A stretch of 64,000 nucleotides of DNA from Lingula anatina (taxonomy: Eukaryota; Animalia; Brachiopoda). Positions 1-64,000 of this stretch are shown piece by piece. The number at the start of each line of letters is the position of its first letter. Within the stretch, counting starts at the first letter, position 1. The stretch lies in the NCBI GenBank assembly GCA_051362555.1, contig CM120644.1, positions 14,654,534-14,718,533 of the forward strand, written 5' to 3'. The notes under the pieces were generated by a model. That model did not search any database, had not been told where the DNA came from, and saw only the letters and a program-made list of their open reading frames with translations. The position numbers and the translations under genes are program-made.

Positions 1-275
1 TCTCTTGATTCTTTGCAAAATATGAGTATATCGGAATTGAAACCAGCGCAGTTTGAGGCCCTGCATCATTATCTACTGAGGGATGATGTTTTTTGCGTGC
101 TGTCCACAGGTTACGGCAAGTCCCTGATATTCAGCCTTATCTTTGATTGGTCCGGATTTGAACAAAGCGCGCTTTGACTCGTTCGCGTTCATTGGCTAAA
201 TCGTTCAATGAGTCAATGAGCGGGCTTTAAATTTGATTGGCGGGCGGCGGAGGCTATCGAATGTGGTCAGAGGTA
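1..275 (+). mobile_element. Relic of a RecQ-helicase-carrying DNA transposon (Academ-like), end fragment
   Basis: From ATG at 22 the frame reads MSISELKPAQFEALHHYLLRDDVFCVLSTGYGKSLIF, a RecQ/SF2 Q-motif plus Walker A (LPTGxGKSL), then degenerates into GATTGG-rich sequence ending CAGAGGTA. Academ assignment is inferred from known RecQ-bearing Academ elements. Confidence 0.5.
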
Positions 276-886: not shown

Positions 887-2132
887 AAGAGATACCGATC
901 AAGAATGTAACGTACCAGCAACATTTCGAAATAAATGAGTAACACTATGACACTGCTCTGAATCAAAGTTTCATCTAGGTTTGATGCCATTTCTCAGATT
1001 TGGGCGGATCCAGATATCTTTTCTGACAGTTTTTTCCGAATTATCTTTGTTGATCTATCCTCTATTTGTGACCGTCTTCCAACGAAACAAAATTAGATGC
1101 CCATCAATGTAAACTTATGAATTCTGACCGTTTTCCAGAAGACCCAGAACTGTCCGTTTCACTACGGAGATTAAGAGGTTCACTTCTTCCGGTTACTGAA
1201 ATGTTTTCATTTTTCAGTTTGCTTTAATCAAACACCTATGTATAAAAAGATTGCAATTTCCTTTTTAGGCTAACCTTAACATCGCCAAAGAGCAAGATAA
1301 GTCGAAAATTAAAGAGGAAAGAATTAGATTTGAGGAAGAGTGCCTGAGGAACTTTGAAAACAACCAAAAGGTACATGTATATCGTTTTAGCCCCCCCCCC
1401 CCAAAAAAAAATATTTGTGCAAAAAATCAGATGAAGTTGGTAAAAAGGAGAATATTAAAAACATTATAAATATATTCTTTACTTATATTTATGCTTTTAA
1501 GCAAGTATTAACGGTAAATTTGGGTTGGTTACCCTTCTGCCAGGGCGACAGAATGATTTTTCACAAGATATTCGCGGATATGTCTTTAAGATAAATAGAC
1601 CGTCATTTAATTCTCTGCCATTCTCCGACTTTTTCAAAATTCCCCTATAATACAGTGTATCTGCCACCCTGGTAGAGGTTAGGGTTTGTGGGGGGACAAG
1701 ATAGGTCATCAAAATCTTCCTTTATATGTGTTTTTTCAGAGGAAACATTCCTCACTACTAATTCACAAAAAATAATTTACATACCTTTAATGAGATAATG
1801 CTGTATTTTCAGAAATTCCCCATTCGGCGCGATGTGTTTGAACAAAGCAAGCCCCCCTCTAGATTCAGACGGTGGTGGAATTCTGTCGTAGATGCCGTGA
1901 GATCTTCATTTTATTTCGGTGGACGCAGACGCACCAGGGTTCACCCTTTAGAGTAAATGGATTGTGTACAGACAAATTAACTAAATAATGAATGAAAGCA
2001 ACGGTGTAAATATATATGAAAATAAATATCAAAGTTTTATCATATTTTTTGCTACAACAAGAATCAAAATGGTAAAATAGATAGTATTTCCACAACATTG
2101 GCGATTGAAATCATATAACGACAAGTTCACTA

Positions 2133-3242
2133 CTAAGAAATTATTTTATTTCTAATTTTTAAATAGAGGTAACAACATATCATAATGGCTAAAACGAGGC
2201 ACGTGCTCAGTGAGCCCACCGATATCCATTTAATTGCTTCAGATAACGTGATTGTTTCTCCAAACCCGGGATACCAGGGCCCGTGATAATACTTAATTTT
2301 TCGAAAGTGATACAATTGTTGTCGCGGAAGGAAAATCAGTACCGCTGCACTCTTAATAGGCGCATCACCCCACCTATAATGATAAATTCCACCACTTTCG
2401 TCTATGAATTTCAAAAAACGCGCAACGTCGGGTCTTCGCCAAAAGTCAAACCTCGATACCTCAAAGTTGTTGTAAAATATCCCACCTTCTGGCCAATCAC
2501 TGTATTCTTTGGGTTCAACTGAATTCACTTTTAGATAATGTGTAATATTTTCCTTGAGGTAAGTAAGGCAGAGTGGATTGTCAAAGTAGACAAGGTTATA
2601 TCCGTAGGTGTAATGATTATCCTGCATAAACCTGAATACATCATATGTGATGTAATCCTGAAGTAGCGAATCATCATCAAGTCTGAAGTACCACGTGATG
2701 TTGGCGAGAATCGGTTGCTGAGCAACCAGACGAGCATGGAACCTGCTCATGTGATTGTAACCAGGGAAACGGGACCGATCAGGTTTTGGACACGTGATGT
2801 CCTTGACGGCTTCCTCTGCTGAAACATTCAAGTAGTAGGGCTGGGTGAAGTGGATTTTTTGGAAGAATATTCTTGATGTAGAAATATCTGTTAAATCAGT
2901 CAAATCTCTATCAGTGACGTTTCCTTCATAGAAAACAACCACAGGGTATTGAAATTTTTGATTAAAATACGTATCAAGATGACGAACGGCGACTTTCATT
3001 CTCCAAAAACTCGCCTCATAGGTCAAGAAATATATGACTGCTTTCGGCTTTCCCGTGGGCCAAGTGCTGACCACACGCTGAAACTCCTTCAACTGTTGGT
3101 CATTCCTAAAGTCCCTCAAAACAGATTTTTGCCTCATCTGCGTGCGGACAATTAATGTGACGGTCAGGATGCAAATAACCAGTGCGGTCATCACGAGGAA
3201 AGGGCGTGGCCTTGACCGCCTCAGCAGCAGGGTATTCAACAT
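2133..3242 (-). CDS. Glycosyltransferase family 15 (Kre2/Mnt1/KTR-like alpha-1,2-mannosyltransferase homolog), copy A
   Basis: GT15 motifs YNHMSRF, WYFRLDDDS, YNNFEVS, GGIYHYRWGDAPI, YYH. N-terminal signal anchor FLVMTALVICILTVTLIV. Start taken as Met24 of the 392-aa ORF (3242) because a T-rich tract and ctaacAG acceptor (AG 3254-3253) lie just upstream. Confidence 0.9.
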   Translation of the reverse strand: MLNTLLLRRSRPRPFLVMTALVICILTVTLIVRTQMRQKSVLRDFRNDQQLKEFQRVVSTWPTGKPKAVIYFLTYEASFWRMKVAVRHLDTYFNQKFQYPVVVFYEGNVTDRDLTDLTDISTSRIFFQKIHFTQPYYLNVSAEEAVKDITCPKPDRSRFPGYNHMSRFHARLVAQQPILANITWYFRLDDDSLLQDYITYDVFRFMQDNHYTYGYNLVYFDNPLCLTYLKENITHYLKVNSVEPKEYSDWPEGGIFYNNFEVSRFDFWRRPDVARFLKFIDESGGIYHYRWGDAPIKSAAVLIFLPRQQLYHFRKIKYYHGPWYPGFGETITLSEAIKWISVGSLSTCLVLAIMICCYLYLKIRNKIIS

Positions 3243-3401
3243 CCCCTCATACCTGTTAGGTAACGATAATAAATAAATAAATAAATAAATAATGTTCACA
3301 AAGTTAAACATGAGTAGCTGAGCATTTAATATGTTTTTTCTTTCTAAACTAACAAAACAGTATCGAAACTCCCGAAATTATATATAGACCTAGCACGCAA
3401 C

Positions 3402-3714
3402 GCCTTTATGCCTGACATTATGTGTGTGTGTGCGTGTGAGTGTGTGTGTGCGTAAGTGTTTGCTTGTGTGGAGATGGTCCACGTAGCATGATTACCGTCA
3501 TACTATAACACGCGTGACTTCCAATGCCCCACCTTTTGTAGCGTTTTAAGCGACTGAGAATCCAAAAGGGGGTGAGGCAACTTCTACTTATGCACACAGT
3601 GTTCTTCCTACCGCGGTGACGTACACTGCACTTTGCAGTTATGCCTTCGCCATAAAGGAATTCATTCTTGATAACATGTAAATGCAATATCAGGCCAGAA
3701 TGAGGCATAAAGGC
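3402..3714. mobile_element. Possible MITE bounded by a 12-bp inverted repeat (GCCTTTATGCCT...AGGCATAAAGGC), containing a (GT)n tract
   Basis: Perfect 12-bp inverted repeat at 3402-3413 and 3703-3714; no clear TSD. Confidence 0.3.
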
Positions 3715-5232
3715 TTAATGAGTCTGCAGCTACAAACTGTTCATTCTCATCCTTAAGCTTATTTTTGACAGTCTGTTTTGAGACTTAGCTAGCCAAACGC
3801 ATGGTCAATCACTGGAAGGAAGCTATACCAATGTAAAATTTACCTGAAGGCACTCCGGTTCACCAGAGATACTATATCATCCCTGTCTGCGACAGAAATT
3901 GTGTCACATATATGCGTGACCTCGATTTCGCTATGACCCAGAGGTGTTTATTCAACAAGATCATTCCAGGTGAAAACTTGTATGACGTCATGCAGGTGTG
4001 TCGATTTGTCAACCGCATATTAAAGGTACACTTCATGGGTTGAAAACTCCACAAAATGCTTATTTTTGCCATCCACAGCTTCTTATTAATCATTACAAAC
4101 ACATTAAAAACGATGTAACCCCTTTTAAATATTTTTGTGGAGCGTACTTGATGTTGATATTTACATAGGAGCATAGAAAGGATGGTCGCTGGTTAAATGA
4201 TTGACCGCTTTAAACTAAAAGCCTCATTACCACGGGAAATCCATATTGGGAAAATCCCCACACAGTTGACCTTTAAGTGGTCAAGAAATTCATATACGAG
4301 GTCTTTTTCACAACTAAAAAATTTAAGAAATATTATCATCAGACAGTTATAAAATATTTAGTGAAAAATCGGAAATTTAACAGTTGTACGTTATCCTAAA
4401 AATGACGATCAGAATTAAAGAAGCGGGTTTAAAGAAACTGTAATGTTGTGTATACAGTACGTATACAATGTATATAAGTGCCATTCTTACTATTAAAAAT
4501 ATATGTCATTGTATGTATGTATGTGTGCAGTTACGTGTGTAATTATGTTTGTATGTATGTGAGCGCGTGCGTGTGCATGCAAGTGTATATTTATCAAAGG
4601 AATTTTGTCAGCACTCTGCTACTAGGCACTTATCAAGCTAGAAGAAGAAACTAACTTCACAATGCGAGCCAACAAAGTGAGGTTATTCGAAATTTTATTC
4701 ACCTGTATAAAAATAAACAAGACACAAATTAATAACACTTTATATGCCAAAACAAAACCATTTGATATTTCCATCATTTTTCACAATCTCCAAGGTGATA
4801 TATCTTCCAAATCTGTTAAGTTTACGATTTATATATAAACCCGTTTTAGAGGTATTTCATTTTTTACTGTCCGTGGTGGTATTAACTGAAAAGTTAAAAA
4901 AATAAATTTTGTCAATCGATTTGGGTGTGGTGCACCTTAGTAATTATGAAAAAAAAGGAAAAAAAAAGAACGCAAAGAAAACTGCTAGGAACAGTCATTT
5001 GGTGCTACATGAATCATGCCTTCTACCAGTGTGGCAGATTATATAGGGAAAAACGGAAAAATCCACACGGCTAAATGACTGTCTTTTTATCTAGAGACAT
5101 ATCTGTGAATATCTGAGAAAAATCAATCTGTCGCCCTGGTAGAGGGTACATGTATCATATATATTTTATTAAATCCTAAGTATTTTCGTTTTGGCGCAAT
5201 CGATAGGCTGAGAAAGGAACGCACTGATTGTG

Positions 5233-6378
5233 TTACCGTGAGAATGGTCCTACGAAAACAAAAACAATTAAAACCAACAGCACCATTCCGACTAGAGATA
5301 CCACGGGTATTTCAAAGATATCTGTGCTCAGGAAAGTATCTATCCATGTGTCGTTTTTGACGCCGTGTCGATACCGCAAATCCGAGAAGAAATACGTTTG
5401 GTTTTTGTCAAGAAATATGGTAACTGCGTCTGTTTTGATTGGTGCGTCTCCCCAGCGATCATAATATATACCTCCTTGCCTGTCAATGTACTCTATAAAT
5501 TGCCACACGTCTGGCCGTCGCCAAAATTTTACATTGGAAATCTCAAAGTTGTTCCAAAATATGTCTAGCTTGGGCCAATGATAATAGTGCTTCGGCTCTA
5601 TAGATTGGTTAAATAGGTAATAAGTCACGTTACCTAATAAATGTTCAACACATAAAGGGTCTTCCTCATGGACGGAATTGTAACCATACATGTAACCGCC
5701 GTTCTCCATCGTCTTAAAAACGTCGTAGGAAATATAACGTAAAATCTCGGAGTCGTCGTCAAGTCTCCAATACCACGTGACGTTTGCGAGAAATGGGCTT
5801 TCAAAAACGAGGCGGACGTGGAAGCGACACATGTGATTGTAACCAGGAAACCGAGATTGGTCCAAGGGGTATGGACATGAACTTCTTTTTACCGCAGCCA
5901 GTAAAGGTTCTTTGATAGAATCAGGCTTGGTGAATGTAACTCTTTGGAAGAATAATGGTGAGGGAGACTGTGATAGCAATTTCCATAATGCCTCATCTGA
6001 TAAATATTGCTCATAGAATACGATTACAGGATACATGTATTTTCGGTTGAAATTCTTATTTAAAAGTCTCAACGATCTTTCGAGCCTCCACAAATTATCT
6101 CCGTTGATCAAATAGTATATCACAGCTCTTGGTTTTTCTGGCGACCAATCTCGCATCATCTCGTTGAATAACGCAAGTTCTCCGTCATTGCTAGTTGGCC
6201 TTCGCTCACCCATTGGTGGAAGCTCCAGTTGGAAGGCATGTTGACTACTGGATGTATTGTAAGTGTAAAATAATAATATAAAGGGAATGAGTCCAATGAA
6301 TCCAATTCCAAGGACCTGTTTTGCTGGCGGTGGCAGAATTCCACACATTTGATTCGACGGTAGATGCTGAAATGACAT
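5233..6378 (-). CDS. Glycosyltransferase family 15 homolog, copy B (381 aa)
   Basis: SRFPGYNHMCRF, WYWRLDDDS, WNNFEIS, GGIYYDRWGDAPI, YRHG; clear paralog of copy A. N-terminal TM VLGIGFIGLIPFILLFY and C-terminal hydrophobic segment. Possible acceptor tttgtcAG about 50 nt upstream. Confidence 0.92.
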   Translation of the reverse strand: MSFQHLPSNQMCGILPPPAKQVLGIGFIGLIPFILLFYTYNTSSSQHAFQLELPPMGERRPTSNDGELALFNEMMRDWSPEKPRAVIYYLINGDNLWRLERSLRLLNKNFNRKYMYPVIVFYEQYLSDEALWKLLSQSPSPLFFQRVTFTKPDSIKEPLLAAVKRSSCPYPLDQSRFPGYNHMCRFHVRLVFESPFLANVTWYWRLDDDSEILRYISYDVFKTMENGGYMYGYNSVHEEDPLCVEHLLGNVTYYLFNQSIEPKHYYHWPKLDIFWNNFEISNVKFWRRPDVWQFIEYIDRQGGIYYDRWGDAPIKTDAVTIFLDKNQTYFFSDLRYRHGVKNDTWIDTFLSTDIFEIPVVSLVGMVLLVLIVFVFVGPFSR

Positions 6379-6566
6379 TTTGGAATATTATGTGAATGGT
6401 GTTATCGTGCTGTGAGAACGCGGTTATTCTGACAAATATTAATTGCGAACCCTTTTAGTGCATGAAAGTGTAACAAATTAAGTAACAAGTGTAACAAGTA
6501 GTAAATGTATATTGTAACATGTAAGATGTCCATCTCCATCTTTCTCCTTCACTCTCTCTTTCACTG

Positions 6567-6568
<2 letters not shown>

Positions 6569-6602
<34 letters not shown>
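6569..6602. repeat. (CA)n microsatellite
   Basis: Pure CA run. Confidence 0.9.
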
Positions 6603-6605
<3 letters not shown>

Positions 6606-8044
6606 AGCCAACACAATACTCGTTAAAATGCTGTTAAAGAGACCAGTGCATGACATTTCGTCAAACTCCCTCTCTCCCTCTCTAGCTCTAACTCACTCTC
6701 ACTTACATCTAATCGTCAGATTAGATTTTAAGAATGTCAAAATCTTCACCTAATTAGCTCACATAAAATTAAAATACTGGGCTACATTGCATCAGCAGAT
6801 CTAACGCAATGTGTTGCGCCGAAATAGGTTGTCTGGCGATATGCACGAATAAAAAGCGCTTTTCTTTAGTTTGTTCACCAAAGTTTTATTTCAAATTTTA
6901 ATTAAAAAAATTAATTAGAATTATTCGTAGTGAGGTAGTAAAATCGAGTGGGTGGCATGATATATTGTTACGTTACTGTTAAAAACGACATTATCGATAC
7001 ACACATCATACCTCACAAATGTCTTTTTAACTTCAAAATGTCTTTTTTGCTTTACCTTCGAAAACAATTTTGAACAAACTTTAATTGTTTTTTGGCAGTT
7101 ATCAGTAGAATACATAACTGAGATGTAGCTATTTTGGCAACGTTCATATTTTGGCATGCCGCGTCCTCCCGTCACAAGTCTTTTCTCCCTTGTATTTTCC
7201 TTTAAAATTAGAATGTCTACGTCACCACCCATGTCATTCTACCAGTCATTGACATGCATTATGCACAAAACGTGTATTTGACATTTTTTTTTTTTTTTTG
7301 ATAAGTGGAAACTGTGACATACACTTTATATGAAGTATTACATTCTGTCTTATATACTATTACCCCTCTCCCTTTTCTTCTTCCTCTCTCATGCGTGTAC
7401 ACATATAAGCATACGTGAGGCGTGTGTGGATTTCATTTTGATTTATGTTATCTCCTGAGGTTAGTTAAAAACAACCATTAGGATAGAAGTTGTGAGTGTG
7501 TTGTTAAGCTATATTTATATCCGCATTGTTATATATCATATGAATTCATAATATGATAAGCTTATAATTTATTTATTCAAAATCAAAGCAACCGAAAGCC
7601 TGAAGTTGTACAAATGCAAGAGCGCAAATAAAAAAATGAAAAGAAAGGGTTATGTACAATGATCACAATAAGCACAGGTATTTAAAAAGGGCTGTATAAA
7701 AAGCTAAATAAAGAAAACTGAATAAGATGTGTTTTGAAATCAAACTGTTTAAATTTAGACCTACTGAAGGTAGAGTGGGTGTTATCCCTTAAGTTTTTGT
7801 GGGATTGGGAGATCAAAAAGATTTTAAACCTCTAAAGAGGTAAATGATCACGGTATGGTTGTTCATGTCCGTATACCAACACTTAGAACTGCGGTTATCT
7901 GTTTTATGAATTATTCAAAACTGTTATATTATAGGTTTCTCTGCTGGTGCAATGTAATATAGACTTACTTGCATGCATTTAAGATACAAATCTAGATCAA
8001 ACGACACAGAACCTAAATCATGGGGTCTAATCATTGCCATTTTA

Positions 8045-27796: not shown

Positions 27797-30700
27797 TGTT
27801 TTGGGTTAGAAAGAACATAGAACTCCTTTTTGTACACGGTTGGCTTTATTTTCGGTTTATTCAAAATTGCTGATAAGCTGACAGTTGATAGCTGATAGCC
27901 GATAGCCGATAAACGGTCACTAAATTAAAAATAAAAATACAATATAATATATTCAAAGTATAATATAAAACAATGATTCTCATAAATTAAAACAAGTACA
28001 CTTACATAAATTGTGGAGTCTATATCTTATAAAGAGAGTCATGTCCTTCTGTCCTTCTCCAGTAAAGTCTGTGTATGTGTGTGTGTGATCTCAGTAGGTG
28101 TGGTCTTTTGTATTCATGCCTCACATGAGTGAGTGACCACATTTCACATTTGCTTGACTGAACAGTTTTTGTCAATATTTTGTGGATCCCAGAACATCGG
28201 GAGGTTCTCCTCGCAGAGATACGTTATATATTTTTATCTCTGCGACACTAATTATTAAACATAAAGTTCAAATAACACACAACTCTTTAACTAATGAAAT
28301 ATATTCATATACTGTAAAGAAATCATAATTATATAACATCATTTATGACTTGTGTACTAATATATATATAATGTTGCATTTAGTATTTAAGAGCAATTAC
28401 ATATCCTCAACAGGAATTAATAAACCCAATCTTCTCACAGATCTCTCTACCTCAATATTCTTAGCACCCTTGTACTCATGAACTTTTTCTCCCACTCTAT
28501 AATTTTTATAATACTTTTACCCTTCTTACTAGACCATCAGTGCCAGGGAAAACTTCAGTAACCTTTGCAAGACGATATTCTCCCTTGAGAACATTCCTAT
28601 CAGGTACTAAAACAACATCTCCCACTTTCAAGTCTCGATTCCCTTTAAACCATTTGGTTTGATGGACAAGAGTGTGTGCAAAGAGATTCTTCCATTGCTC
28701 TCAGAACTGTTTCACACAGCCTTCCACTAAAGTGAGACGAGATCTCAAGGAATGATTTGCATCATAACCTCCAGGATTTCTAGAAGTAGATCTACCAAGA
28801 AGTAGAGAATTGGGAGTAAGGATATTGAGAGTAGAATCAACACTGGGCATCAATCCTATTTGTATTTCATTAAGCAAATCTGCAACTTGTGTAAAGACTG
28901 AGAATTTCAGGCACAGATAACCTCTGATTTTTCACACTAAGGTCAATTGCTTTTTTTAGCAGACTTTACCAATGATTCTACAGCACCTTGATACCATGGA
29001 CTGTCAGCAGGCCCAAATTTCCAATTAAGACCCACATCTGAACCTTGTCTCAAAAGAACGTCTTTATCTTTATTGGCCTATGCTCGTGCTAATTCAAAGC
29101 TAGCACCTAGAAGTTGAGAACCAAGATCTAAATAGATAACAAACGGCCATCCTCGAATAGCTGCAAAACGAGACAATGCCAACAAAAATGACTGTGTATC
29201 ATATCAAAACACCACTTCAATGTGAACAGCCCTGCAACAAAGATCAGTAAAAATGACCCCCCATGCTTTACCAGTAGTGGGTTTTTGAACTTCCCCCTTT
29301 ACCTGGTAGGGTCCAAATAAATCCAACATCACAGTGGAAAATGGAGGAGAAGGCATGAGACGAGCAGGTGGCATAGGGCCCATTTTTTGATCAACGTATT
29401 TTGTTTTGAGAAGTTTGCACAATTGACAATTGTCACAAATACTTTTGCTTAATTTTGCAGCATGAGATGTCCAAAATCGTAACCTGAACTTTGCTGCTGT
29501 AACATCGCGACCTTTATGACCACAATTTAAATGTTAATCATTCATAAACAATTTGGTCAAAGGATGCTTTCTAGGCAGTAAAATCAATGGTTTGTTTTCA
29601 GGTGTCAGTGGATTTTGATGTGCAATGCGTGTCCCTACTACCCATAATCCATTTTGTTTAACGGGCATCAAAGTACGGAATTGTGCTTTCACTCCATCAT
29701 TATACCATGCAGAATTCTGAGCATCAGATATCAAAAGCATTTCAGCCTGTGTAAGTAATTCAGGTGTAACATTGGACTTATTTCCTCCTCGGAAAGAACC
29801 TGCTCTGAAAATTGCCAAGATCCTAGCATAAGCCCATTTTATAACTTTCAAAGATGAACACCTAGGATAAGATGTCTCTGCATGGAGTAATGTGCCAGTA
29901 TTCACTGTTTTCAAAGATGCTTGGATTTTCTTCTCACCTCGAAGAAATTCAGACACAGTAGGGTTAAATTTCACACTCCACTGATATCGTGGCTTGTAAA
30001 GAAACTCTGGTCCATTGAACCATTCTGAAACAGGACCTAAATCACTAGGAAACCTACCTCTTGTGACCCAATCAGCAATACTATGCTGTCCACTAATCCA
30101 ACCCCAGCAACCAACATCCCCTGTTGTTGCTGCCTGGAATTCTCCAATACGAACACCCTCATATACACGGAATCGAGTGCTCAGTTTGTTAATCATACAC
30201 AAAACGGTTGCTGAATCAACTAATTGCAATATTTCAGAAAATTGAAATCTGCATTCAGATTCAATTACTTTTTTGACATAACAGCACCATTTAATTCCAT
30301 TTGTGGAATTGAAATACGATTCAAAGGTGCAATTCGACATTTTGCCATTACTAACCTACACCAGAAAGTGCCATCTTTCAAAGTCCACCTAATGTAGGCT
30401 GCACATCCATATGCGTTTTCTGAACCATCAGACAAGATGATTAACATTGGATCACCAACAACATCATGCACTGGTTTCAATTCATCAATCTGAAACAATG
30501 AACAGAAAAATTTCCTCAATTTGACATTTAATACCTCTGGAATAGCTTCGTCCCAATGTAGACGCATGTTTCTCTCAAATACATCTTTGCAAGTAAGAGA
30601 AAAGGTACAAGGAAGCCAAATGGATCAAATATTCCCATCACTTGCTCCAAAACTATGCGTCTGGTCAGCACAGTAGCTATTTCACCTGGAACCTGAGATG

Positions 30701-33214
30701 AAAGAAGGTTAGGTTCAGTACGAATATTTCTACGTTTCGTAGATTTCGTAGAGAAATTCAAACATGCTTTGAAAACAATAACATCATCTGAGGGAATCCA
30801 AGAAACGCCCAAAACTTTGTGGATTTCTGACTTAGCTTTAGGTACATTCTGACCCCCAAAGATCCACCCTTTTGTCTTAAAACCTCCCTTGGAAAAATAA
30901 TATCATTGTCTCTGGATAAGAGTTCAGCTTGAGAAAAGCTTTACACACTATCCACTATATCATCAACATAGGAAGATTCTTTGATGATATCAGCTGCCTG
31001 TGGACTGATAGAACAAAAGAAGTCAGCAGTCATGTCTTTTGCCTCAATTGCAATTGTACCTGCAGGCTTGTCTCCCATATTTACACGTGTAATGCACCAA
31101 ATGTCTGGGGGTCTATTTTCCATGTCACGCCACAAAAATCGGTGAGTATTTTGTTCTAACTTCCCCAGAAAAACTGAATTATACATCTTTCTGATGTCAC
31201 CAATCAAAACAACTGGGTTTTCACGGAATCTAATCAAGAGTCCTAGCAAATTGTTTTTGAATGTATCAGGGCCTTTTGCAAGAAATGAATTCAAAGAAAC
31301 CCCTTGGAAAAGTTGGCTACTGTTGAAAACAATTCTGACTGGAGTTGATGAATTTTGTGGCTGCTCGACAGCTAAGTGTGCTAAATAGAAGCCAGGGCCA
31401 TCCCATTCAAGAATTTCTTGCTGGGTCATTTTTCTAGCTACATCTATAGTTTCCATATCATGTATTTGTTCAGAGTACTTCTCTGCCCATTGAGGGTCCA
31501 TTTTAAGTTTTTTTCAGTACTTTTCAAAGTGGCAAAAACAGCATTATAATTGTCAGGCAATAATGTTGGGTCAAATAACCAGGGATATTCAGCAGACCAG
31601 CATTCACGTTCTTTGTCATAGTGCAATTTTGAAGTTATCAGTTGTAATTCTTGTTCCTCTTTAAAAGAATATGTATGTCCCACAGATGGACATTTTCCAC
31701 ATTTGCAAGCACCACATTTTGGATTCATTTCCGTTCCCATTTTCTCACCTAATATGAAAGTATCAATATTAGAGAGCTTTTCGGGAAAAATGTGACTCAC
31801 TTTTTGTTTTCAAAGAGTCTACGCTTTTGTGCCCATTAAAGGAGTCTGAAAAGACAATTTTACCCTTGCTTCTAGAAGGATTAAAATTCACAACACTCCC
31901 ACCCTTAGTAGGGTTTGAGAAGGGACCAGCAGAGCTATCTACAGTATGTCCCTGAGAGGGATCAGTAATCTCAACACCCCCACCCTTATAAGGGTCTGAG
32001 AAAGGACCAATAGAGGAAACTACAGTATGTCCCTGAGAGAGATCAGTAACCTCAAAACCCCCACCCTTAGAAGGGTCTGAGAAAGGGCCAATAGAGGAAA
32101 CTACACTATTCCCTTGGGAGGGATCAATTATCACAACACCCCCACCCTTAGAAGGATCTGAGAGGGGGCCAATAGAGGACACAACACCTTGACTCTGAGA
32201 GGGATTAATAATCATAGTGTCCCCACCCTTAGAAGGGTCTGAGAAGGGGCGGTTAAATTCACTGTGAGTGACTTTCATACAAGAAGAGTTCACATGCATA
32301 TACATGTACTGACAGATTTGCAGAGAGTAACTGAATAACCAATGCTGTTGGATTTCTCTGTTCGTTTTACTGTTCAATTAACTTATGATATCCTGGCAAA
32401 CATACACCCAAATCCCCCTCCATTACACTGAGGTTAGCACCATCAGACTCGATTTCTTTTTTTTTTTTTTGGATGTAAACCAAAATAATCCCCACCTAAC
32501 AATATGTCAACGGGTCCGTTTGGCCTTTGAAGAGTTTTTTGGATCAAAATTTGGAAAAATGTTTGCAATGGCAGTCTCACTTAACTGAGAAACAGAGCTT
32601 GAGAGTGTAGGCAAACAAAAGACTTCAACTTTCACTTTTCTACCACTGACAGTAATAAGAGTGACTTCATACAAATGAGTAGAAATTGTGTCTGTAGAGG
32701 GTAATCTATTCATTTGAATGGAAACTTTTCCAAATTTCTTTGCGTTTAGTTTTTCAACGCCGTTTTGAGAAATAAAAGTAGTATCAGCACCATCATCACA
32801 AAAAACAACAGCTTTGTTTTTGGATGGAGAAACTGGGACATCATATATGGCATAGAGTGTCTTACCATTACTTTTGGCTACATTGCTCTCAGCATGTTTG
32901 CTCTCCACAGAAGTGTCACCTGTATTATAGCCTTTATCTACAGTGGGTGCTTGCCAACACATCAGGGTGTGGTGGGAACATCTGTTACAATAAGAGCATG
33001 GACTATTTTCTTTGCAGCTGGCTCTTCTGTTGGAAGCAAAACACCTGAAGCATCTACCTGCTTGTCTGAGTTTTTCTTTTCTTTCAGGTACTGTGTGTGT
33101 GTGTGTGTGTGTGATCTCAGTAGGTGTGGTCTTTTGTATCACATGAGTGAGTGACCACATTTCACATTTGCTTGACTGAACAGTTTTTGTCAATATTTTG
33201 TGGATCCCAGAACA
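27797..33214 (-). mobile_element. Decayed BEL/Pao LTR retrotransposon (3' LTR 27797-28196; truncated 5' LTR 33091-33214)
   Basis: Fragmented ORFs give Gag Cys/His motifs (CFRC, CSYC..HHTLMC), protease FCDDGAD, RT GDIRKMY/YVDD, RNase H LSDGS/PQMEL/ADWVTRG and integrase LDLFGP/DLCCRAVHIE. LTR termini TGTTTTGGG...CCCAGAACA; many frameshifts; no clean TSD. Confidence 0.9.
31870..32250 (-). repeat. 81-bp (27-codon) minisatellite, about 5 copies, inside the BEL/Pao pol region
   Basis: ACCCTTA recurs at 31901, 31982, 32063, 32144, 32225 (period 81); translates as (PFSDPSKGGGVxIxDPSQGxxVVSSIG)n. Confidence 0.9.
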
Positions 33215-34307
33215 GTTAACATACATGAACCCGATAATATATTCATTTCAAGGTTTGTTCGTCTACATTAATACTAGCCACACTAGGCGAATTTATGAAT
33301 GTTTCCTCTCAAATTCATCTCTAATATCAAATCATGATTACTTATTCACAATACATTAAGCTGAAGACCCAGTACTGTATTTCATATAGGCCTACATGCT
33401 GCGTTAAATCTGTGTTAAACACCCCTGCTACTAGGTCAGTTGTATTATCAGTGTCACAACTGAATTCAGTCAGATAACAGCGATGAAATAATGTGTCACC
33501 GTGTCTGTATTGTCTGTATTGTACATAGAGATAACCCAAAAATTACTGCCTAAGATAACTTTGAAGTCTCCTTGAACACTAACGTCCACCTCAGGTCAAG
33601 AGAGACAACACATCTAATGGCGACTTGGGGCGTGTACCTGCCACAAAAAGAAATATAACTGGAGAAAGTGCAGGTAAATCCCACTCCTAATACAGTATAT
33701 TGTAATACATTACATTGGGAATATACATGTAAGTCAGATAATTGTATTATAACGTAGCGGGATGGTGCTTGCTGCAGTTTCTATAGGATAGTAAACATAT
33801 AACTCGTCGTTACTAAGTCCGGAGTGTAGTATGCACTCGTCAGAATAAATTCCCTGTGATATTTCAGTTACGTACTTTTTATTTAGAATTTTATCCAATT
33901 TTCATTTTCATTTATTTCATAATTCACTTGATTGCTTACGATAATGTTAAATTACATATCTGTATGTGTAGCTTCTTTTTCACCTCCACCTTTCTTTTCT
34001 TTTTTCTTTTCATTTATTTATTTATGCATTTTGTTTCGTGCTTGGATTTACTGCACTGATTTTCATTCTATTGATATAAACCTATTGTCACATATGCCCA
34101 ATAAAGAGGCTTACGGGGTCCTCAGTAAATAATGAACTTTTCTTTCATGTGTCGGCACTTGTCTTACTCATTTTAACATAAAGTAGCATACCTTACGTAA
34201 CATGCATTTAAATATAGCTTTTTGATATGTTTACCTCCATTACCAAACCTCCACCTTTTATCTGATGTATTTCATTTCTTTATTTTCATATTTTGGTCTT
34301 AGGAGCC

Positions 34308-54952: not shown

Positions 54953-54995
54953 ATATGACACCGTTTGTCACTATATCTCAGTAGCTATTCCGTTA

Positions 54996-57900
54996 TATAA
55001 CACGCAGGGGTTATATAGGTTAAATAAAAGTCAAAGAAAAGGCATGTGTTTTTCACTGGATCTTGGTTTATTCACATGGATTCACAAGACACGTAAAAAC
55101 TAAAAAAGAAGAAAAGAAAAAGAAAATTACAACAATGTACTTACTAACGGTTATTTACGTGTTCAAATTTACTTACTCAAAAATTTATACATTTCAATAA
55201 TCACCAATAATAAATAACTAATCATCAATAATCAATAATAATCAATAAACAGTATTAAACTCACCATTTCTGCCATTTCTTTACACTATAAATTTCAAGT
55301 AGAAATAACGGATTCAAAAGTAAGAGTACTATGTGTTCCTCCTACGGAGACACTGTGATGAATGAAACAAAGTGCAAAACTCATGGGGCACCACCCTGAA
55401 TGAAAAGTTGTCATTTATGCAAATGAGTGCATTAGATGAGCCGGACATCAGGCTCCTCAATCACAACAAAAGTAAACTAAACCTTACATACCGGCCACCG
55501 AAAGGCGATTTAATCAAGATTCAAAATAGCCTTTCTAATCAAATATAAACACTATTTAATTTACTCAAAAAATGTCTTATAAAGTCATTGTCACTTAAAT
55601 GCATTGCACATTAAACAAAATTTCCTTCCAATAAACACAATTTTCGCACATCACGGCGAAAGCGTCCCTTGGCTGTTTTAACAATCACCTGGCGCACATG
55701 TCCGTATTTATCAGGAAAAGTTTCCTCTATCAATCCTTTAGGCCAATGACCACGAAAGGCATTTTCATCAATAAGCAAAACAAAGTCACCTTTTTGAAAG
55801 TTTTTTGCTGGTCGGAGCCATTTCTGACGTTCTTGAAGCACAGGCAAGTATTCTTTAATCCATCGCTGCCAAAATTGGTCTGCAATTAACTGCGCGTGTT
55901 TCCACTGTTCATTATATTGATCACGTTCTGTGAAATTGTCAGCGGACAAACAGGGATTCGAAAGCAACAACAGTAGTTGGTTAGGTGACAAAGTTTGTAG
56001 GTCGTAGTAATGGTCTGCTTTGACTACTGGGAACTGCATTTCATCTTCGGCACACCATGCACTTGCGAATGACTTTTTTCACTGTTGACAATCCACGCGT
56101 TATCCAAAATTCTTGACGTATCACAGATAACACGTGATATGCTCCCACATGTCCTTCTTTAATGTGATAGTGTCGCACAATGATTTCAGTGACGTGATGA
56201 TCGTGTGGAAGAATTTTCGGGTGTTTCCGTGAAGTAGATATCGCTGCATTCTGGAGACGTCCTCCTACACACAGAATCCCATCAATTTTGATCGGAGATA
56301 GCTTGCGCAATGGGCTCACGTATCCCTTGGAATCGGGTTTTTTGGTCATTGCAGATGATACAACGTTGCACTCTTTGGGAAATGATTTTGCTTGTACATA
56401 CATCACAATGGCATCAGTAGCAAGCGCGATTTCCTGTATGGTCCATTGTTTCTATCTACTGTCAACTGTCTCACGCGGGACAGTAAGTAGCGTTTGAAAC
56501 GCAAAATCCAGGCAACTGATTTCTGTAAAGTATACCACGATGATAAATGATGCAACAATCGCTCTACACCGTCCAATACTTCCGACGACGTAGTGACATG
56601 TACATGAGCTGATTTACATTTCACTTCTCTGTCATTTTCTGGAATTTCATGTAGATTATCTGGTTGTTTCGGCCAATGTATCTCGGGCTGATACAAGAAA
56701 GCTGGGCCATGTAACCAAAGCTGTATGTCATCACCGTAATCACTTCTGAGCTGTATTCCTCTCGAAGCGTAATCTGCCGGGTTCTGATCTGAATCAACAT
56801 GATACCACTGCGATGGGAATGAAACATCATGTATCATTTGTAAACGATTGGCAACAAAAACGTGGAATCTGGTCGCGGAATTCCGAATGTACTGGAGCAC
56901 AATCGTAGAATCTGTCCAGAAAACAACACGATGAATGGGCAGTTGTAGCTCCTCCATCATTTGTTTGTGAACTTTCGCAGACAATGTAGCAGCTGTCAGC
57001 TCCATTCGTGGAACAGTCACTGTTTTCAGAGGCGCTACACGTGATTTCCCCATGACAATGTTGCAATATACCTGCTGATTAATATCAACAAACCGCAAGT
57101 AGGAAACAATGCCGTAGCCGGATAACGAGGCATCTGAAAAATGGTGAAGTTCAATGGACTGAATATCTGCTAATTGAGCTGATTTGTAGCATCTTGGGAC
57201 TTCAATTGTTTGTAAATTGTCCAATCCTTCTCTCCACTGTGTCCATGCATTAAGATGCTCTGCAGGTAAGTCACTGTCCCACGCAATGCCTTCCCGACAC
57301 AATTCTTGGAGTATCTGTTTAGGTTTGAGAATAAGTGGCGCTGCAAAACCCAGTGGATCATATATTGATGCAATAAATGACTTAATACCTCTGCGGGTAT
57401 TCTTTACATCCCTTTCACGGACGCAGTATCCAAATGTATCCTTTTCTATTTTCCACTGTACGCCTAACGCATGTTCTATCGGCTGTTTGTCAAAGTTTAC
57501 ATTTCTGACCGACGGTGCTTGCTCTGCAGTGGGCACACTGGATAGAACTTCCTCCTGGTTCGATATCCACTTGGTCAGATGAAATCCACCTTTCTGCAGT
57601 AGCGAGGTGAGTTGAGTAATCACCATCTTAGCTTCATCAACGGTCTCTACAGACTTTAAGCAATCGTCAACATAGAAGTTTCTGTAGACAGTTTCAACGG
57701 TCTGGAAATCAAAGTCCTTTCCATGATCTTCTGCATTTTTGAGGAGAGCGTAGACTGTACAACTTGCAGAGGAAGTAGCACCAAACACGTGGACTAACAT
57801 TTGGTATTCTTCTGGTTGTTTGCTGAGATCTCCTGCCGGCCACCATAGGAATCGTAAGGCGTCACGATCATCAGGGTACACTCTCACTTGATGATACATT

Positions 57901-60900
57901 TGCTCAATATCAGCAACAATGGCTATCTTCTCCTGGCGGAATCTAAGGAGAACTCCAATGAGTGAATTGGTTAAATCCGGACCCTGTAACAAGGAATCAT
58001 TCAGCGAAACGCCTGCATATTTCGCTGCACAATCGAAGACAACTCTAATTTTGGACTTCTTTGAATTGATCACAGGGTGATGAGGTAAGTACCAAACAGA
58101 ATTGCTGTTATTATGCAGATTTCTGTGGTCAATCTTCTGAGCGTGTCCTTTATCAATATACTCCTGAAGAGCTTGAGTATACTTCTCTCGTAGTTTTTCG
58201 TCACGCTGTAAACGTCTTTTGAGCAAATTCAAGCGCTTTTCAGCTGCTGGCTTGTTATTGGGTAAGAGCTCGTCTGACTTCCAAGGAAGTGAAACTTGGT
58301 AATGTCCGTCAACAAATACCACGGACTCATCCATGATTCTCTTCGCTTTCCTATCTTCTAATGACATGCACTGGTTGCTGCTGACTGAAGACTCACTGAA
58401 TTCACTGTTGTAAATCTTGCTTAGTTGGGTAGAAATAGAATCGCAGCCTCTCAGAGAATTGTCACATCCGAGTACCTGGTCTGCGTGAATGAAATTAACC
58501 GTGACGTCACCATCATTTGGTCTTTTCATGGGACCTAATATAGTCCATCCTAAAATCGTTCGGATCGCGTACGGTTGTTTCTTATCGCCTCGTCTCTCTT
58601 CTATGCGCCAGTGAGCTTCAGGGTGATCATTACCGATGAGAATGGTAACTGTTTTGTCATCTAGCTCTGGCAGTTGCACATCTTTCAAATGGCTCCACTC
58701 TAAAATGTCCTCATTGTTTGGAATGTTCTTTTCACAGATGGGTAGTCTGTCGGTCGTCCAAACTTGATCTAGAATCAATCCTTGCTGGCTATTGATAGCT
58801 TTCACTTCTAGCTGTACTTCTTGTCCTTGGTTTACGCAACTTTCATCGTTAACTGTACTGACACTGTACTGGATAGGTTTCCCTCTGGCACCTAACTTTT
58901 CAGCTAAACTGTGTAAACATAAACTGTGATCAGATCCATTGTCTAGAAATGCATAAGTTTCAATAATCGGTCCACCATTGCCGCCGCTCACGGTCACTGG
59001 GATAATCTGTAGACTGATTCTTCTTCCTGTCGCTACCGCAGCACTCTGGACTGCAACTACGGGGTCAGTAACAACAGACGTAGCGTTGGCACCAGGCTCA
59101 CGTTGCAGTGCGGAGCTGTTGGCAGGTACACAGGGTGGGTGTAGTAACGCGTGATGTCGCTTGCCACATCCAGGGACTTGACACAATTGTTTCCATTGAC
59201 ACGTTCTCGCCGTGTGTGGAGGGTTGGACTGAAGACAATTGAAACACAGTTTGTTTTCCGACACAAAATTTCTCCTATCACTGTAATTCATTCTAGCAAA
59301 TTTGAAACATTGCTTGATAGTATGATTTCCAGAACAAAACACACACGGGTCTCTCTGGACTGACGATGGCTGGGACTTGTTGGAGTTACTGTTGCTTTTC
59401 TCGGCAGGGTGAACGTTAGTGGCTAGGGTAGTGGTCTTATAGGACGGGTTGTGACAACTGCCCTTTGACTTAGGTTTCACATCCGGCTTGGATCCTACCA
59501 ATTGTCCGAACCTTGTGTTGGCAATCTGTACCATTTCCTCCAGGTAATCTGCGAGATCCTTGAACTTGACCTCAATCCACTGATTCAACAATTTTCCGGA
59601 ACGTTTGGCCCATCCAGCTTGGAGATATTGCGGTAATCGCCGGATCACTTTTTCCAGAGTATCCATAGAATTCAAATCTTCATAGTATCCCATCTTGGAT
59701 GCTGTCATTTGGCACGTAGTCATGTCTCTTGAGAGCTTGGAGAGTCGTGTAACGTCTGACGCTTTAATGGGAGGACCTGTTACTATTTTCTCCAACATAG
59801 CTTTGATGATGATGTGTTTTTGTCCGAAATGAGTCTGTAATATGTTTCTAGCCTGGAAATAACCTTCCTCTGGTTCAAGTATGACACAGCTTTTTATGGC
59901 TTCTTTGGCTTCACCTGTGCAGTACTGTATGAGGTATGACAGTTTACTTCTAAAGTCTGGTACTCTTTGTTCAATATTAGTCTCAAAGTTTCTTATGAAA
60001 GTCGGGTATGATACCGGATCACCATTGAAATACAAGTACTCACGTTTGGGCATTTCTTGGTTCAGCGTGATTTCTTGTAAAGCTCGTTGTTGTTGTTGAA
60101 GTAAGTGTGCTACTTGGTCATTCATGGTAAGCTGACGTTGTTGCTCTATGGTAGACGTACCTATTGACTGCGCCGTCATAGGTGTATATTCCGTTGCATG
60201 TGGGTTTAACGTCATCGTTGGATCTGTATAGGATGGCACAATGTACGGTTGCTGTAGCTGTGACGGTTGTGACGACTGTGCTGCAGTAGGGAACTCCTGT
60301 GGTTGATTTGTCCTTGACATAGGTTTCGGTTGAGTGGGCTCCGTCTCATATGACACTCCTAATTGCTGAAGCTGTTGCGTGGAATGCGGGTGATGTGCAT
60401 TCATGCGTGACCGCTGTTGCTCACTCTGCTGTTGCTGTTGTGCACTGATATGTTGATGAGAAACATGATCGGAATTTGTCAGATTATGTGCATCAATAGT
60501 ATCAACGTTACCTTCTTCCATGGAATTAAAGTAGCGATCAATCGTGAAGTTGTGTTCCGATAAAGATGCGTCTTCCTGAATTTCAGCCTCAATTTCCCGC
60601 CGTCTCACCTGGGCTCGTAGGGAAAGCATTCTCATTTCGTCTTTTAGCTCTTGCTCGCGATACCGACGCCTTAGTGCGGTTTCCGCTTCTTCGAATTCCA
60701 GCTGAGCATTAGCAATAGCAAGCGCTGCTTTCGTCCTTTGGGATTCCGATGCCGAACGCAAACTGTTGGTTCTGAATCGTCTATGGGATAGTCCGAAATC
60801 TTGTAAGCTGCCGTGGTACGCCATGATGGAAATTTCAGTGGGATGATTGAAAAATGTTTTTACTTTATATAACACGCAGGGGTTATATAGGTTAAATAAA

Positions 60901-61360
60901 AGTCAAAGAAAAGGCATGTGTTTTTCACTGGATCTTGGTTTATTCACATGGATTCACAAGACACGTAAAAACTAAAAAAGAAGAAAAGAAAAAGAAAATT
61001 ACAACAATGTACTTACTAACGGTTATTTACGTGTTCAAATTTACTTACTCAAAAATTTATACATTTCAATAATCACCAATAATAAATAACTAATCATCAA
61101 TAATCAATAATAATCAATAAACAGTATTAAACTCACCATTTCTGCCATTTCTTTACACTATAAATTTCAAGTAGAAATAACGGATTCAAAAGTAAGAGTA
61201 CTATGTGTTCCTCCTACGGAGACACTGTGATGAATGAAACAAAGTGCAAAACTCATGGGGCACCACCCTGAATGAAAAGTTGTCATTTATGCAAATGAGT
61301 GCATTAGATGAGCCGGACATCAGGCTCCTCAATCACAACAAAAGTAAACTAAACCTTACA
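54996..61360 (-). mobile_element. Recent BEL/Pao LTR retrotransposon, 493-bp LTRs (54996-55488, 60868-61360), 5-bp TSD CGTTA
   Basis: LTRs look identical by eye; TSD at 54991-54995 and 61361-61365; PPT-like GGTGGCCGGTA before the 3' LTR; gag-pol internal region. Confidence 0.95.
55611..60824 (-). pseudogene. BEL/Pao gag-pol polyprotein, open through RNase H, then frameshifted with the integrase core deleted
   Basis: Three Gag Cys/His knuckles (CVFC..H..C, CFNC..H..C, CQVPGC..HH..H), protease FLDNGS, RT ADIEQMY/YVDD, RNase H FSDAS/PRMEL/WTDS/NPADYASRG. Frameshift near 56440. Integrase HHCC (HIKEGH..CMVC) is followed directly by SRPL and the C-terminal domain. Confidence 0.9.
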
Positions 61361-62899: not shown

Positions 62900-64000
62900 A
62901 TTCGTGTAGACCACGATCACCTGTAGACTTAGATATAATGCGGTAGAGGAGATACTGCACGAGTTGTGGAAAATATTGCTGTTGTTGAGATGTGATTGTG
63001 GTAGTTGATACCTAATTGCGGTTGTTGAGACAACAAGGGTTCCTGTACTGGTTCTGACTGTACACTAGAAAGTTCAATACGTAACACATACATAAACCCT
63101 GCAATATACTCATTTGAAGGTTTGTTCCTCTACATTAATACTAGCCAAGTTAGGCGAATTTATGGATGTTACCTCTCAAATTCATCTTTAATATCAAAGT
63201 ATGATTACGTAGTCGACAATATAACATTAAACTGAAGACCCAGTACTGTATTTAATATACACGCTGCGTTAAATCTGTGTTATACACCCCTGCTACTAGG
63301 TCAGTTGTATCAGTGTCACAACTGAATTCAGTCAGATAACAGCTATGAAATAATGTGTCACCATGTCTGTATTGTCTGTATTGTACATAGAGATAACCCA
63401 AAAAATAGCTGATTAAGATGTACTTTCAGGTCCCCTTGAACACTGAACACCTCACCTGACCAGGTGTACATGTCAAGAGAGACAGCACATCTAATGGCGA
63501 CTGGGGGCGTGTACCTGCCACCAAGAGAAATATAACTGGAGGAAGTACAGGTAAAGCCCATTCCTAATATATTGTAATACATTACATTAGGAATATAATT
63601 CCGATAATTGTATGATAATGTATAGGGGAATGGTGCTTGCTGCAGTTTGTGTCTCTGTAGGTTGGTATAAAAATAAGGCGTCGTTACCGAGTCCGGAGTG
63701 TAGTATTTACTCATCATAATACCTACCCTGTAATATTTTGGGTACCTACATTTTTTTTTAAATAATTTTTTTCATTTTCAGTTTTCATTCATTTCATAAT
63801 TCAATTGATAGATTATAATAATTCTAATTCTATATCTATTAGTTAAGTTTCATTTGTACTTCCGCCTTTCTTTTTTCTTTCTACTTTTTTTTTCCTTTGT
63901 ATATTTTTTCCTATAGTAACTTTTGTTACACAAGCATAATAAAGAGGCTGATTTGGTTCTCTATAAAAATTGAAGACGTTGCATGACTTTTCTTTCATGT
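62900..64000 (+). other. Upstream block of a sixth TRIM unit (CDS predicted to start about 155 bp beyond the window)
   Basis: Close colinear match to 49580-50705; position 64000 corresponds to 50705, and the copy-5 ATG is at 50861. Confidence 0.8.

What the first reader, a model, noticed from the sequence alone, without database searches (positions are those of the whole stretch)
2133..6378. Fungal/protist-type GT15 mannosyltransferase genes embedded in an animal genome
Seen: two diverged, intact GT15 paralogs with uninterrupted coding exons and upstream splice acceptors, on the same sequence as metazoan TRIM-NHL genes and animal transposons. Established: GT15 (Kre2/Mnt1) is a mainly fungal alpha-1,2-mannosyltransferase family, absent from vertebrates and Drosophila. 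Kre2 has an EPD metal motif, whereas these have RLDDDS. Inference: horizontal acquisition, or patchy ancient retention, followed by duplication, implying an uncharacterised animal glycosylation activity.
Basis: partly seen in the sequence, partly recalled or inferred. Interest (0 to 1): 0.7.

Follow-up and report, generated by a model that had tools for sequence, protein, structure and literature searches.

The report
Ancient spiralian GT15 sugar-transferase pair
These are two intact, transcribed sugar-transferring enzyme genes in what is most likely a lamp-shell (brachiopod) genome; they belong to a family best known from yeast, but they group with copies from segmented worms and a flatworm rather than with fungi, so they are likely an old inheritance of this animal group that makes a still untested sugar linkage.

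Summary
Observation confirmed. There are two intact GT15 (PF01793) genes on the minus strand, 47% identical. They are 95% and 97% identical to proteins already named in RefSeq for Lingula anatina and are covered by RNA reads. No splice joint was seen. The interpretation needs correcting. The genes are not fungal-type: RLDDDS is the canonical DxD motif, shared with protist, bacterial and viral GT15s, whereas EP(D/N) marks the fungal branch. They sit in an animal-containing clade with named annelid (Owenia, Capitella, Dimorphilus) and flatworm (Macrostomum) proteins, at support 95/92 and 90/88. Grouping with fungi is rejected (AU p=0.005). Both carry a second, C-terminal hydrophobic segment, shared with an Owenia protein in the same subclade. 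The likely reading is an old spiralian family of Golgi retaining glycosyltransferases, probably GDP-mannose users, with a local tandem duplication. Whether it entered early animals by transfer from a non-fungal microbe or was retained is unresolved. Metazoan GT15s are already tabulated (PMC7185993 supplement); my ten searches found no paper on their origin or activity.

The parts
2133..3242 (-). GT15 gene 1, single coding exon, 369 aa; N-terminal hydrophobic anchor, catalytic domain with RLDDDS, C-terminal hydrophobic segment
   Evidence: 351/369 identical to XP_013386701.1; low RNA coverage in 3 of 4 runs
3253..3300 (-). Likely 3' splice acceptor of gene 1 (T-rich tract, AG at 3254-3253), 10 nt upstream of the ATG
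   Evidence: sequence; RNA depth drops in bin 3219-3409 and is zero at 3410-3791; no joint read listed
5233..6348 (-). GT15 gene 2, single coding exon, 371 aa; same two-anchor layout
   Evidence: 359-360/371 identical to XP_013386709.1 and XP_013382411.1; depth about 16-27 in run X1, stranded as expected for a minus-strand RNA
6367..6385 (-). Likely 3' splice acceptor of gene 2 (tttcAG at 6368-6367); puts the ATG at 6378 inside the intron
   Evidence: sequence; mean depth of bin 6275-6465 is about half the per-site depth at 6292-6335, and zero beyond 6466; inferred
5072..5148 (.). Short host interspersed repeat downstream of gene 2; inverted copy at 1530-1609 downstream of gene 1
   Evidence: 86% identical inverted pair; many RNA reads from unrelated loci pile up on it with loose ends

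Best explanation
The two genes are intact, transcribed, tandem GT15 paralogues that group with annelid and flatworm GT15 proteins, were likely inherited from an early spiralian ancestor, and are predicted to be Golgi-lumenal, Mn2+-dependent retaining glycosyltransferases that probably transfer mannose from GDP-mannose to a membrane-near glycan. Shown: family, fold, intactness, transcription, active-site conservation and clade. Inferred: the first Asp of DDD and the C-terminal His bind Mn2+, and the catalytic domain is held in the lumen by anchors at both ends. Also inferred: donor GDP-Man (about 65%), alpha-1,2 linkage (about 40%), and a glycolipid rather than glycoprotein acceptor (about 40%). 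I favour an ancient entry from a non-fungal microbial eukaryote (about 55%) over retention from the opisthokont ancestor with many losses (about 35%).
For: Family and fold. Residues that PMC4546622 and PMC11077754 assign to Mn2+, phosphate and donor-sugar binding (passages) were mapped through the alignment. They are kept in both genes and across the 116 animal-clade rows: Y180 116, M183 116, R205 116, D207 116, N277 116, E279 116, R308 111, D311 114, A312 114, H338 115 (P0002 numbering). The guanine-binding Asp is Glu (104 of 116), a swap also seen in 9 of 15 Candida species. Tree: animal-containing clade 95/92 in a 54-row IQ-TREE and 90/88 in a 52-row tree with Macrostomum added. A 10-row subclade (91/96) holds four Lingula proteins, Owenia CAH1777906.1 and five unnamed rows, and 8 of its rows carry the C-terminal segment. 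Lingula plus fungi is rejected at p=0.005. GC3 is 0.465 and 0.435 against 0.45-0.50 for six neighbouring host genes. Of 30 read-versus-window differences in gene 2, 15 are synonymous (pN/pS about 0.29, p=8e-4).
Against: Only 10 animal-clade proteins besides the window pair carry an animal name, so the taxonomic range is thinly known and absence from other animals was not tested. Support for the animal clade fell to 90/88 with an unsettled bootstrap in the larger set, and its rows were chosen from earlier trees. The 8-row C-terminal-anchor subclade is 93/77 only, and another Owenia protein outside it also has such a segment, so the feature arose at least twice or was lost repeatedly. The animal-plus-fungi clade is only marginally rejected (p=0.040). 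Several fungal pocket residues differ: Ktr4 Arg142 is variable, Asn172 is His/Tyr, and the acceptor-site His and Trp of CaMnt1 are mostly Ile and Tyr, so donor and acceptor may differ from yeast. Membrane segments rest on hydropathy and model helices only. The 30 differences are a best-supported subset of 165 listed, and reads may come from a near-identical paralogue.
Confidence: 0.7

Rival explanations
1. GT15 was present in the opisthokont or eukaryote ancestor and was kept in some spiralians while lost in most other animals, with no transfer at any point.
For: DxD-type GT15s occur in scattered eukaryotes: Telonema, trypanosomes, and Guillardia and Chlorella in the PMC7185993 table. The nearest outgroups of the animal clade look eukaryotic. 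The animal-plus-fungi clade is rejected only at p=0.040. The GH13_1 amylases offer a published parallel where retention could not be excluded (PMC7003070, abstract).
Against: No choanoflagellate, sponge, cnidarian, deuterostome, ecdysozoan or mollusc name appeared among the named hits or the 30 proteins looked up, but most hits are unnamed. Bacterial- and viral-type rows lie between the animal and fungal clades (99/90; 97/97).
Confidence: 0.35
2. The pair was acquired by this brachiopod lineage from a fungus.
For: 3469 of 3547 GT15 sequences in the PMC7185993 table are fungal. The only solved relatives are fungal. The coding regions lack introns.
Against: AU p=0.005 against Lingula plus fungi. 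DDD rather than EPx: 22 of 22 intact fungal-type ORFs have EPx. Annelid hits score far higher than Kre2p. Host-like GC3. The neighbouring host TRIM-NHL and GT31 genes also have single coding exons.
Confidence: 0.02
3. The genes are contamination or a chimeric assembly from a symbiont or food organism.
For: No long-read linkage could be tested, and no whole genome is held for this window.
Against: RefSeq holds 95-97% identical Lingula proteins, two of them with the same longest contig length of 55,470. RNA runs with the same species label cover both genes (3 of 4 runs). A host repeat lies beside both genes. Relatives lie on 32-39 Mb Owenia sequences.
Confidence: 0.02
4. The spiralian enzymes have changed donor or linkage, for example to an alpha-galactosyl- or alpha-glucosyltransferase using a UDP-sugar.
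For: Nucleobase-pocket positions differ from fungi (Arg142 variable, Asn172 to His/Tyr, Trp204 to Phe) and so do acceptor-site positions. Identity to Kre2p/Ktr4p is only 22-26%.
Against: Donor-sugar residues (R205, Y180, N277, D311, A312) and an acidic base-binding residue are kept. All characterised GT15s in the papers read use GDP-Man.
Confidence: 0.3

Closest known systems
CAZy GT15 / Kre2-Mnt1 family: S. cerevisiae Kre2p (1s4n/1s4o/1s4p), Ktr4p (5a07), A. fumigatus CmsA (7boo)
   Same: Pfam PF01793; GT-A fold; conserved YxHMCR, NxE, RWGDA and metal His; N-terminal type II-like anchor.
   Different: DDD instead of EP(D/N); altered guanine-stacking and acceptor residues; extra C-terminal hydrophobic segment; separate clade; 22-26% identity; activity untested.
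RefSeq Lingula anatina 'glycolipid 2-alpha-mannosyltransferase(-like)' XP_013386701.1, XP_013386709.1, XP_013382411.1
   Same: 95-97% identical, same start codons and lengths: very probably the same genes in another individual or assembly.
   Different: The names are automatic annotations; no function or origin is attached to them in anything I found.
Annelid and flatworm GT15 proteins: Owenia CAH1777906.1 and CAH1782037.1, Capitella (CAPTEDRAFT_153870; ELU17833.1 in PMC7185993), Dimorphilus, Macrostomum PAA67564.1
   Same: RLDDDS, same clade; two Owenia proteins also have the C-terminal hydrophobic segment.
   Different: Most members end about 36-45 residues after RWGD and lack the second anchor (107 of 112).
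GH13_1 'fungal/Dictyo-type' alpha-amylases in brachiopods, phoronids, some annelids, molluscs and hemichordates (PMC7003070, abstract read)
   Same: A fungus-typical carbohydrate enzyme with a patchy bilaterian range that includes brachiopods, and retention versus transfer unresolved.
   Different: A hydrolase, also found in sponges and anthozoans; no such non-bilaterian GT15 was named in my hits.

Membership tests
GT15 (PF01793) | Profile match above the curated cut-off | tested here: met
   137.7 and 150.2 bits against a cut-off of 25
GT15 (PF01793) | Kre2-like GT-A fold | tested here: met
   Model of gene 2; the top 10 Foldseek rows are all CmsA, Kre2p or Ktr4p. Gene 1 was not folded.
GT15 (PF01793) | Metal, phosphate and donor-sugar residues (acidic metal ligand, His, Tyr220 equivalent, Arg, RWGD Asp) | tested here: met
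   D207, H338, Y180, R205, N277, D311 in gene 2 and their equivalents in gene 1 (roles from PMC4546622 and PMC11077754 passages)
GT15 (PF01793) | GDP-mannose donor and alpha-1,2 transfer | not testable with these tools
   Needs an assay; the nucleobase pocket is only partly conserved
Fungal Kre2/Mnt1/Ktr clade | EP(D/N/x) in place of DxD | tested here: not met
   DDD in both genes; EP in 13 of 13 fungal-type rows; PMC4546622 describes EPD and its variants
Fungal Kre2/Mnt1/Ktr clade | Falls within or next to the fungal clade | tested here: not met
   AU p=0.005. The fungal rows are unnamed metagenome ORFs plus Diversispora.
Fungal Kre2/Mnt1/Ktr clade | Single N-terminal anchor (type II; layout recalled, PMC4546622 passages mention only a lumenal domain with an N-terminal stalk) | tested here: not met
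   A second hydrophobic segment lies at the C-terminus in both genes; hydropathy only
Recent horizontally transferred gene | Restricted to one lineage, nested in the donor clade, atypical composition | tested here: not met
   Three phyla in one clade; GC3 like the host genes
Ancient horizontal transfer into Spiralia | Absent from other holozoans and nested in a non-opisthokont clade | tested here: inconclusive
   The only named near outgroup is Telonema; the sister position is unresolved; most hits are unnamed

The most novel reading that the evidence does not exclude
An ancient transfer from a non-fungal microbe gave early spiralians a DxD-type GT15 family that then expanded in annelids and brachiopods, including a subfamily anchored in the membrane at both ends that builds a sugar linkage on glycolipids which vertebrates and flies cannot make.
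Probability: 0.25. Interest if true: 0.6.

Novelty: new variant of a known kind. Interest (0 to 1): 0.4.

Why it matters
GT15 is treated as a fungal family and as a drug target because humans lack it (PMC11077754, passage). A conserved, multi-copy branch in brachiopods, annelids and a flatworm means that these animals probably carry a Golgi glycosylation step that has no assigned enzyme or product. The two Lingula proteins are single-exon and easy to express, so the activity can be tested directly. It is not a striking new transfer: the genes are already annotated and metazoan GT15s are already counted in a published table.

Tried and rejected
No whole genome is held for the window, so copy number and long-range linkage were not tested. 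No RNA holder was listed among indexed runs; raw-read runs were laid instead. No splice joint with 3 or more reads was listed within 1500-7200; first exons may lie further upstream, outside the stretch laid. The genome-contig scan found 5 pattern matches and no relative, and a second query had no usable conserved stretch, so named bacterial relatives are limited to one Anaerolineales MAG protein. The ESM Atlas gave fungal, diatom and giant-virus GT15 clusters only. Earlier findings of the scan: none. In one search the three Lingula rows formed their own branch beside the annelid-containing rows, which looked like the species tree. I dropped that reading, where an Owenia protein and unnamed rows joined the Lingula subclade. 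The idea that the C-terminal segment is Lingula-specific (4 clear and 1 borderline of 112) was also dropped after 7 more were found among the 115 new proteins. The EukProt protein labelled Filipodium sits inside the animal clade; I treat it as likely host carry-over (that its host is a sipunculan is recalled, not checked). Literature searches for a candidate product gave no alpha-1,2-mannose structure for Lingula or annelids. Rows left out of trees: 5 short domains and near-duplicates; 2 without a motif anchor; 22 new rows without both anchors or too short and 15 long-branch or redundant rows; the careful trees use chosen subsets of 54 and 52 rows. No complex prediction was run because no binding claim is made.
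Full report
Observation. The window holds two stop-free minus-strand ORFs at 2133-3377 and 5233-6387. Both match Pfam Glyco_transf_15 (E 7e-40 and 1e-43) and are 47% identical over 318 residues. From the sequence and the start of the named relatives, the coding regions are 3242-2133 (369 aa) and 6348-5233 (371 aa). Each ATG is preceded by a pyrimidine-rich AG (3254-3253; 6368-6367). The AlphaFold model of gene 2 has mean pLDDT 85.5, and its ten best PDB matches are all CmsA, Kre2p or Ktr4p at 22-26% identity.

Host. The best hits are proteins named Lingula anatina in RefSeq: gene 1 is 351/369 identical to XP_013386701.1, and gene 2 is 359/371 and 360/371 identical to XP_013386709.1 and XP_013382411.1. 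The first two list the same longest contig length (55,470), which fits a tandem pair in another assembly. The window is therefore most likely Lingula or a very close relative, and the genes are already annotated. Two further, more distant Lingula GT15s exist (XP_013387234.1, XP_013389523.1). The rest of the window is animal: five intact TRIM-NHL genes, four GT31 copies, and Pao and RT elements. GC3 of the two genes (0.465, 0.435) is like that of six neighbours (0.45-0.50).

Expression. Four RNA runs with the same species label were laid on 1500-7200, 6 to 30 in 100 of each run read. Gene 2 has depth about 16-27 in X1 with first mates on the plus strand, as expected for a minus-strand RNA in most stranded libraries. 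X7 and X9 cover both genes thinly, and X4 covers neither. Depth falls in the bins holding the two acceptors and is zero just upstream, which fits spliced 5' UTRs, but no joint was listed there, so splicing is inferred. Of 30 single differences in gene 2 taken from the 40 shown (165 listed), 15 are synonymous against 22% expected (pN/pS about 0.29, p=8e-4). The reads may come from alleles or from a near-identical copy.

The motif. RLDDDS aligns to Kre2p RVEPDI. PMC4546622 (passages) states that the Kre2 family lacks the DXD motif found in many glycosyltransferases and has EPD or variants. In my data DxD is the widespread state: D, D, D in 116, 115 and 114 of 116 animal-clade rows (the window pair plus 114 of the 120 hits), in 8 of 8 near outgroup rows, DDD or DTD in 16 trypanosome-type rows, and DDD or DSD in 80 of 80 viral loci. 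EPx occurs in 22 of 22 intact ORFs recovered from 116 matches to a fungal pattern taken from another motif. The motif thus argues against a fungal source.

Phylogeny. FastTree on 222 rows gave a 116-row clade holding all named animal proteins (support 94). A careful IQ-TREE on 54 chosen rows gave that clade 95/92 and the fungal-type clade 100/100. AU tests on that set reject Lingula plus fungi (p=0.005) and, marginally, animals plus fungi (p=0.040). A profile search of 1.84 billion representatives found 5397 proteins at E up to 0.001; adding the new rows and naming ten brought in Macrostomum lignano, two more Owenia proteins and a fourth Lingula protein. In a second careful tree (52 rows, bootstrap not fully settled) the animal clade has 90/88, and the window pair (100/99) lies in a 10-row subclade (91/96) with two other Lingula proteins, Owenia CAH1777906.1 and five unnamed rows. 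The nearest outgroups are unnamed eukaryote-like proteins and methyltransferase-GT15 fusions, one named Telonema subtile; their order is unresolved. Limits: only 10 animal-clade proteins carry an animal name, the fungal rows are unnamed apart from Diversispora, and rows were chosen from earlier trees. What follows is that the family was present before brachiopods, annelids and probably flatworms split (inference). How it got there is open.

Anatomy and mechanism. Both proteins have a hydrophobic segment near the N-terminus and another at the C-terminus; the model shows helices at 19-43 and 359-376. The second segment is rare in the family: 4 clear and 1 borderline of 112, and 7 more among the 115 new proteins. 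Eight carriers group at 93/77, including Owenia CAH1777906.1; another Owenia carrier lies elsewhere. Mapping the Ktr4p and CaMnt1 ligand residues (passages of PMC4546622 and PMC11077754) through one search shows that the Mn2+ ligands (D207, H338 in P0002 numbering), the Tyr220 equivalent (Y180) and the donor-sugar residues (R205, N277, D311, A312) are kept in both genes. The base-binding acid is Glu, but the Arg142, Asn172 and Trp204 positions and two acceptor positions differ. The likeliest mechanism is a Golgi-lumenal retaining transfer of mannose from GDP-Man, with the domain tied to the membrane at both ends. That would suit a membrane-near acceptor such as a glycolipid. Donor, linkage, acceptor and location are inferred.

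What is known. PMC7185993 (passages; supplement files 1-12 searched, file 13 not) counts 3547 GT15 sequences: 3469 fungal, 16 metazoan, 26 protist, 23 plant, 12 bacterial, 1 viral, and lists a Capitella protein as a representative. The Lingula genome paper PMC4595640 has no occurrence of 'mannosyl' or 'horizontal' in its main text and none of 'mannosyltransferase', KRE2 or KTR in its one supplement held. PMC12403961 (section 18) reports other glycosyltransferase expansions in Alvinella and does not list GT15. PMC7003070 (abstract) describes a parallel case for amylases. PMC3606520 (passages) notes complex glycosphingolipids in Lingula and annelids without giving their mannose linkages. PMC3797821, PMC8778642, PMC6935376 and the bioRxiv S. 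rosetta paper (passages) added nothing on animal GT15. Ten searches found no paper on the origin or activity of animal GT15. The library lacks most subscription journals and bioRxiv supplements, and gene-family tables in other genome papers' supplements, which I did not see, may list these genes. Absence from vertebrates and Drosophila was not tested; PMC11077754 states absence in humans.

Verdict. These are real, expressed, already annotated genes. They are not fungal-type and not a lineage-specific transfer, but members of an old, uncharacterised spiralian branch of GT15 with an unusual second anchor. New variant of a known kind; interest 0.4.

Noticed in passing
window 13300-54999 and 62900-64000: Tandem array of units, each a single-exon TRIM-NHL gene (+; five intact, 632 aa, 83-87% identical to the copy at 21200) tail-to-tail with a GT31 galactosyltransferase-like gene (-). 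One GT31 is intact (25041-23935), the others are broken or deleted (17090-16797, 38265-37246, 54910-53888); the upstream region of a sixth unit begins at the window end.
   Followed up: partly
window 54993-61360: Pao/BEL-type LTR retrotransposon with 496-bp terminal repeats that are 100% identical, so a very recent insertion; main ORF 56403-60902. An older, decayed Pao copy lies at about 29500-33250.
   Followed up: no
proteins P0145, P0159, P0294 and about 40 related rows: A large clade of long eukaryote-like proteins near the animal clade; the three scanned fuse Methyltransf_22 to one or two GT15 domains, and one is named Telonema subtile. This suggests coupled glycosylation and methylation.
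   Followed up: partly
loci L001-L080: DxD-type GT15 genes without an obvious N-terminal anchor are common in viral contigs, many from giant-virus MAGs; 104 stretches encoded a relative.
   Followed up: partly
proteins P0218, P0275-P0277: Several Trypanosoma species (theileri, melophagium, rangeli, grayi) encode a GT15 with DDD or DTD in a clade of their own.
   Followed up: no
window 1-175: Short frame with a helicase-like Walker A sequence (resemblance to RecQ-type helicases is recalled, not tested), ended by a stop.
   Followed up: no
window 3250-3236 (-): A four-codon out-of-frame upstream ORF overlaps the start codon of gene 1; it might damp translation.
   Followed up: no
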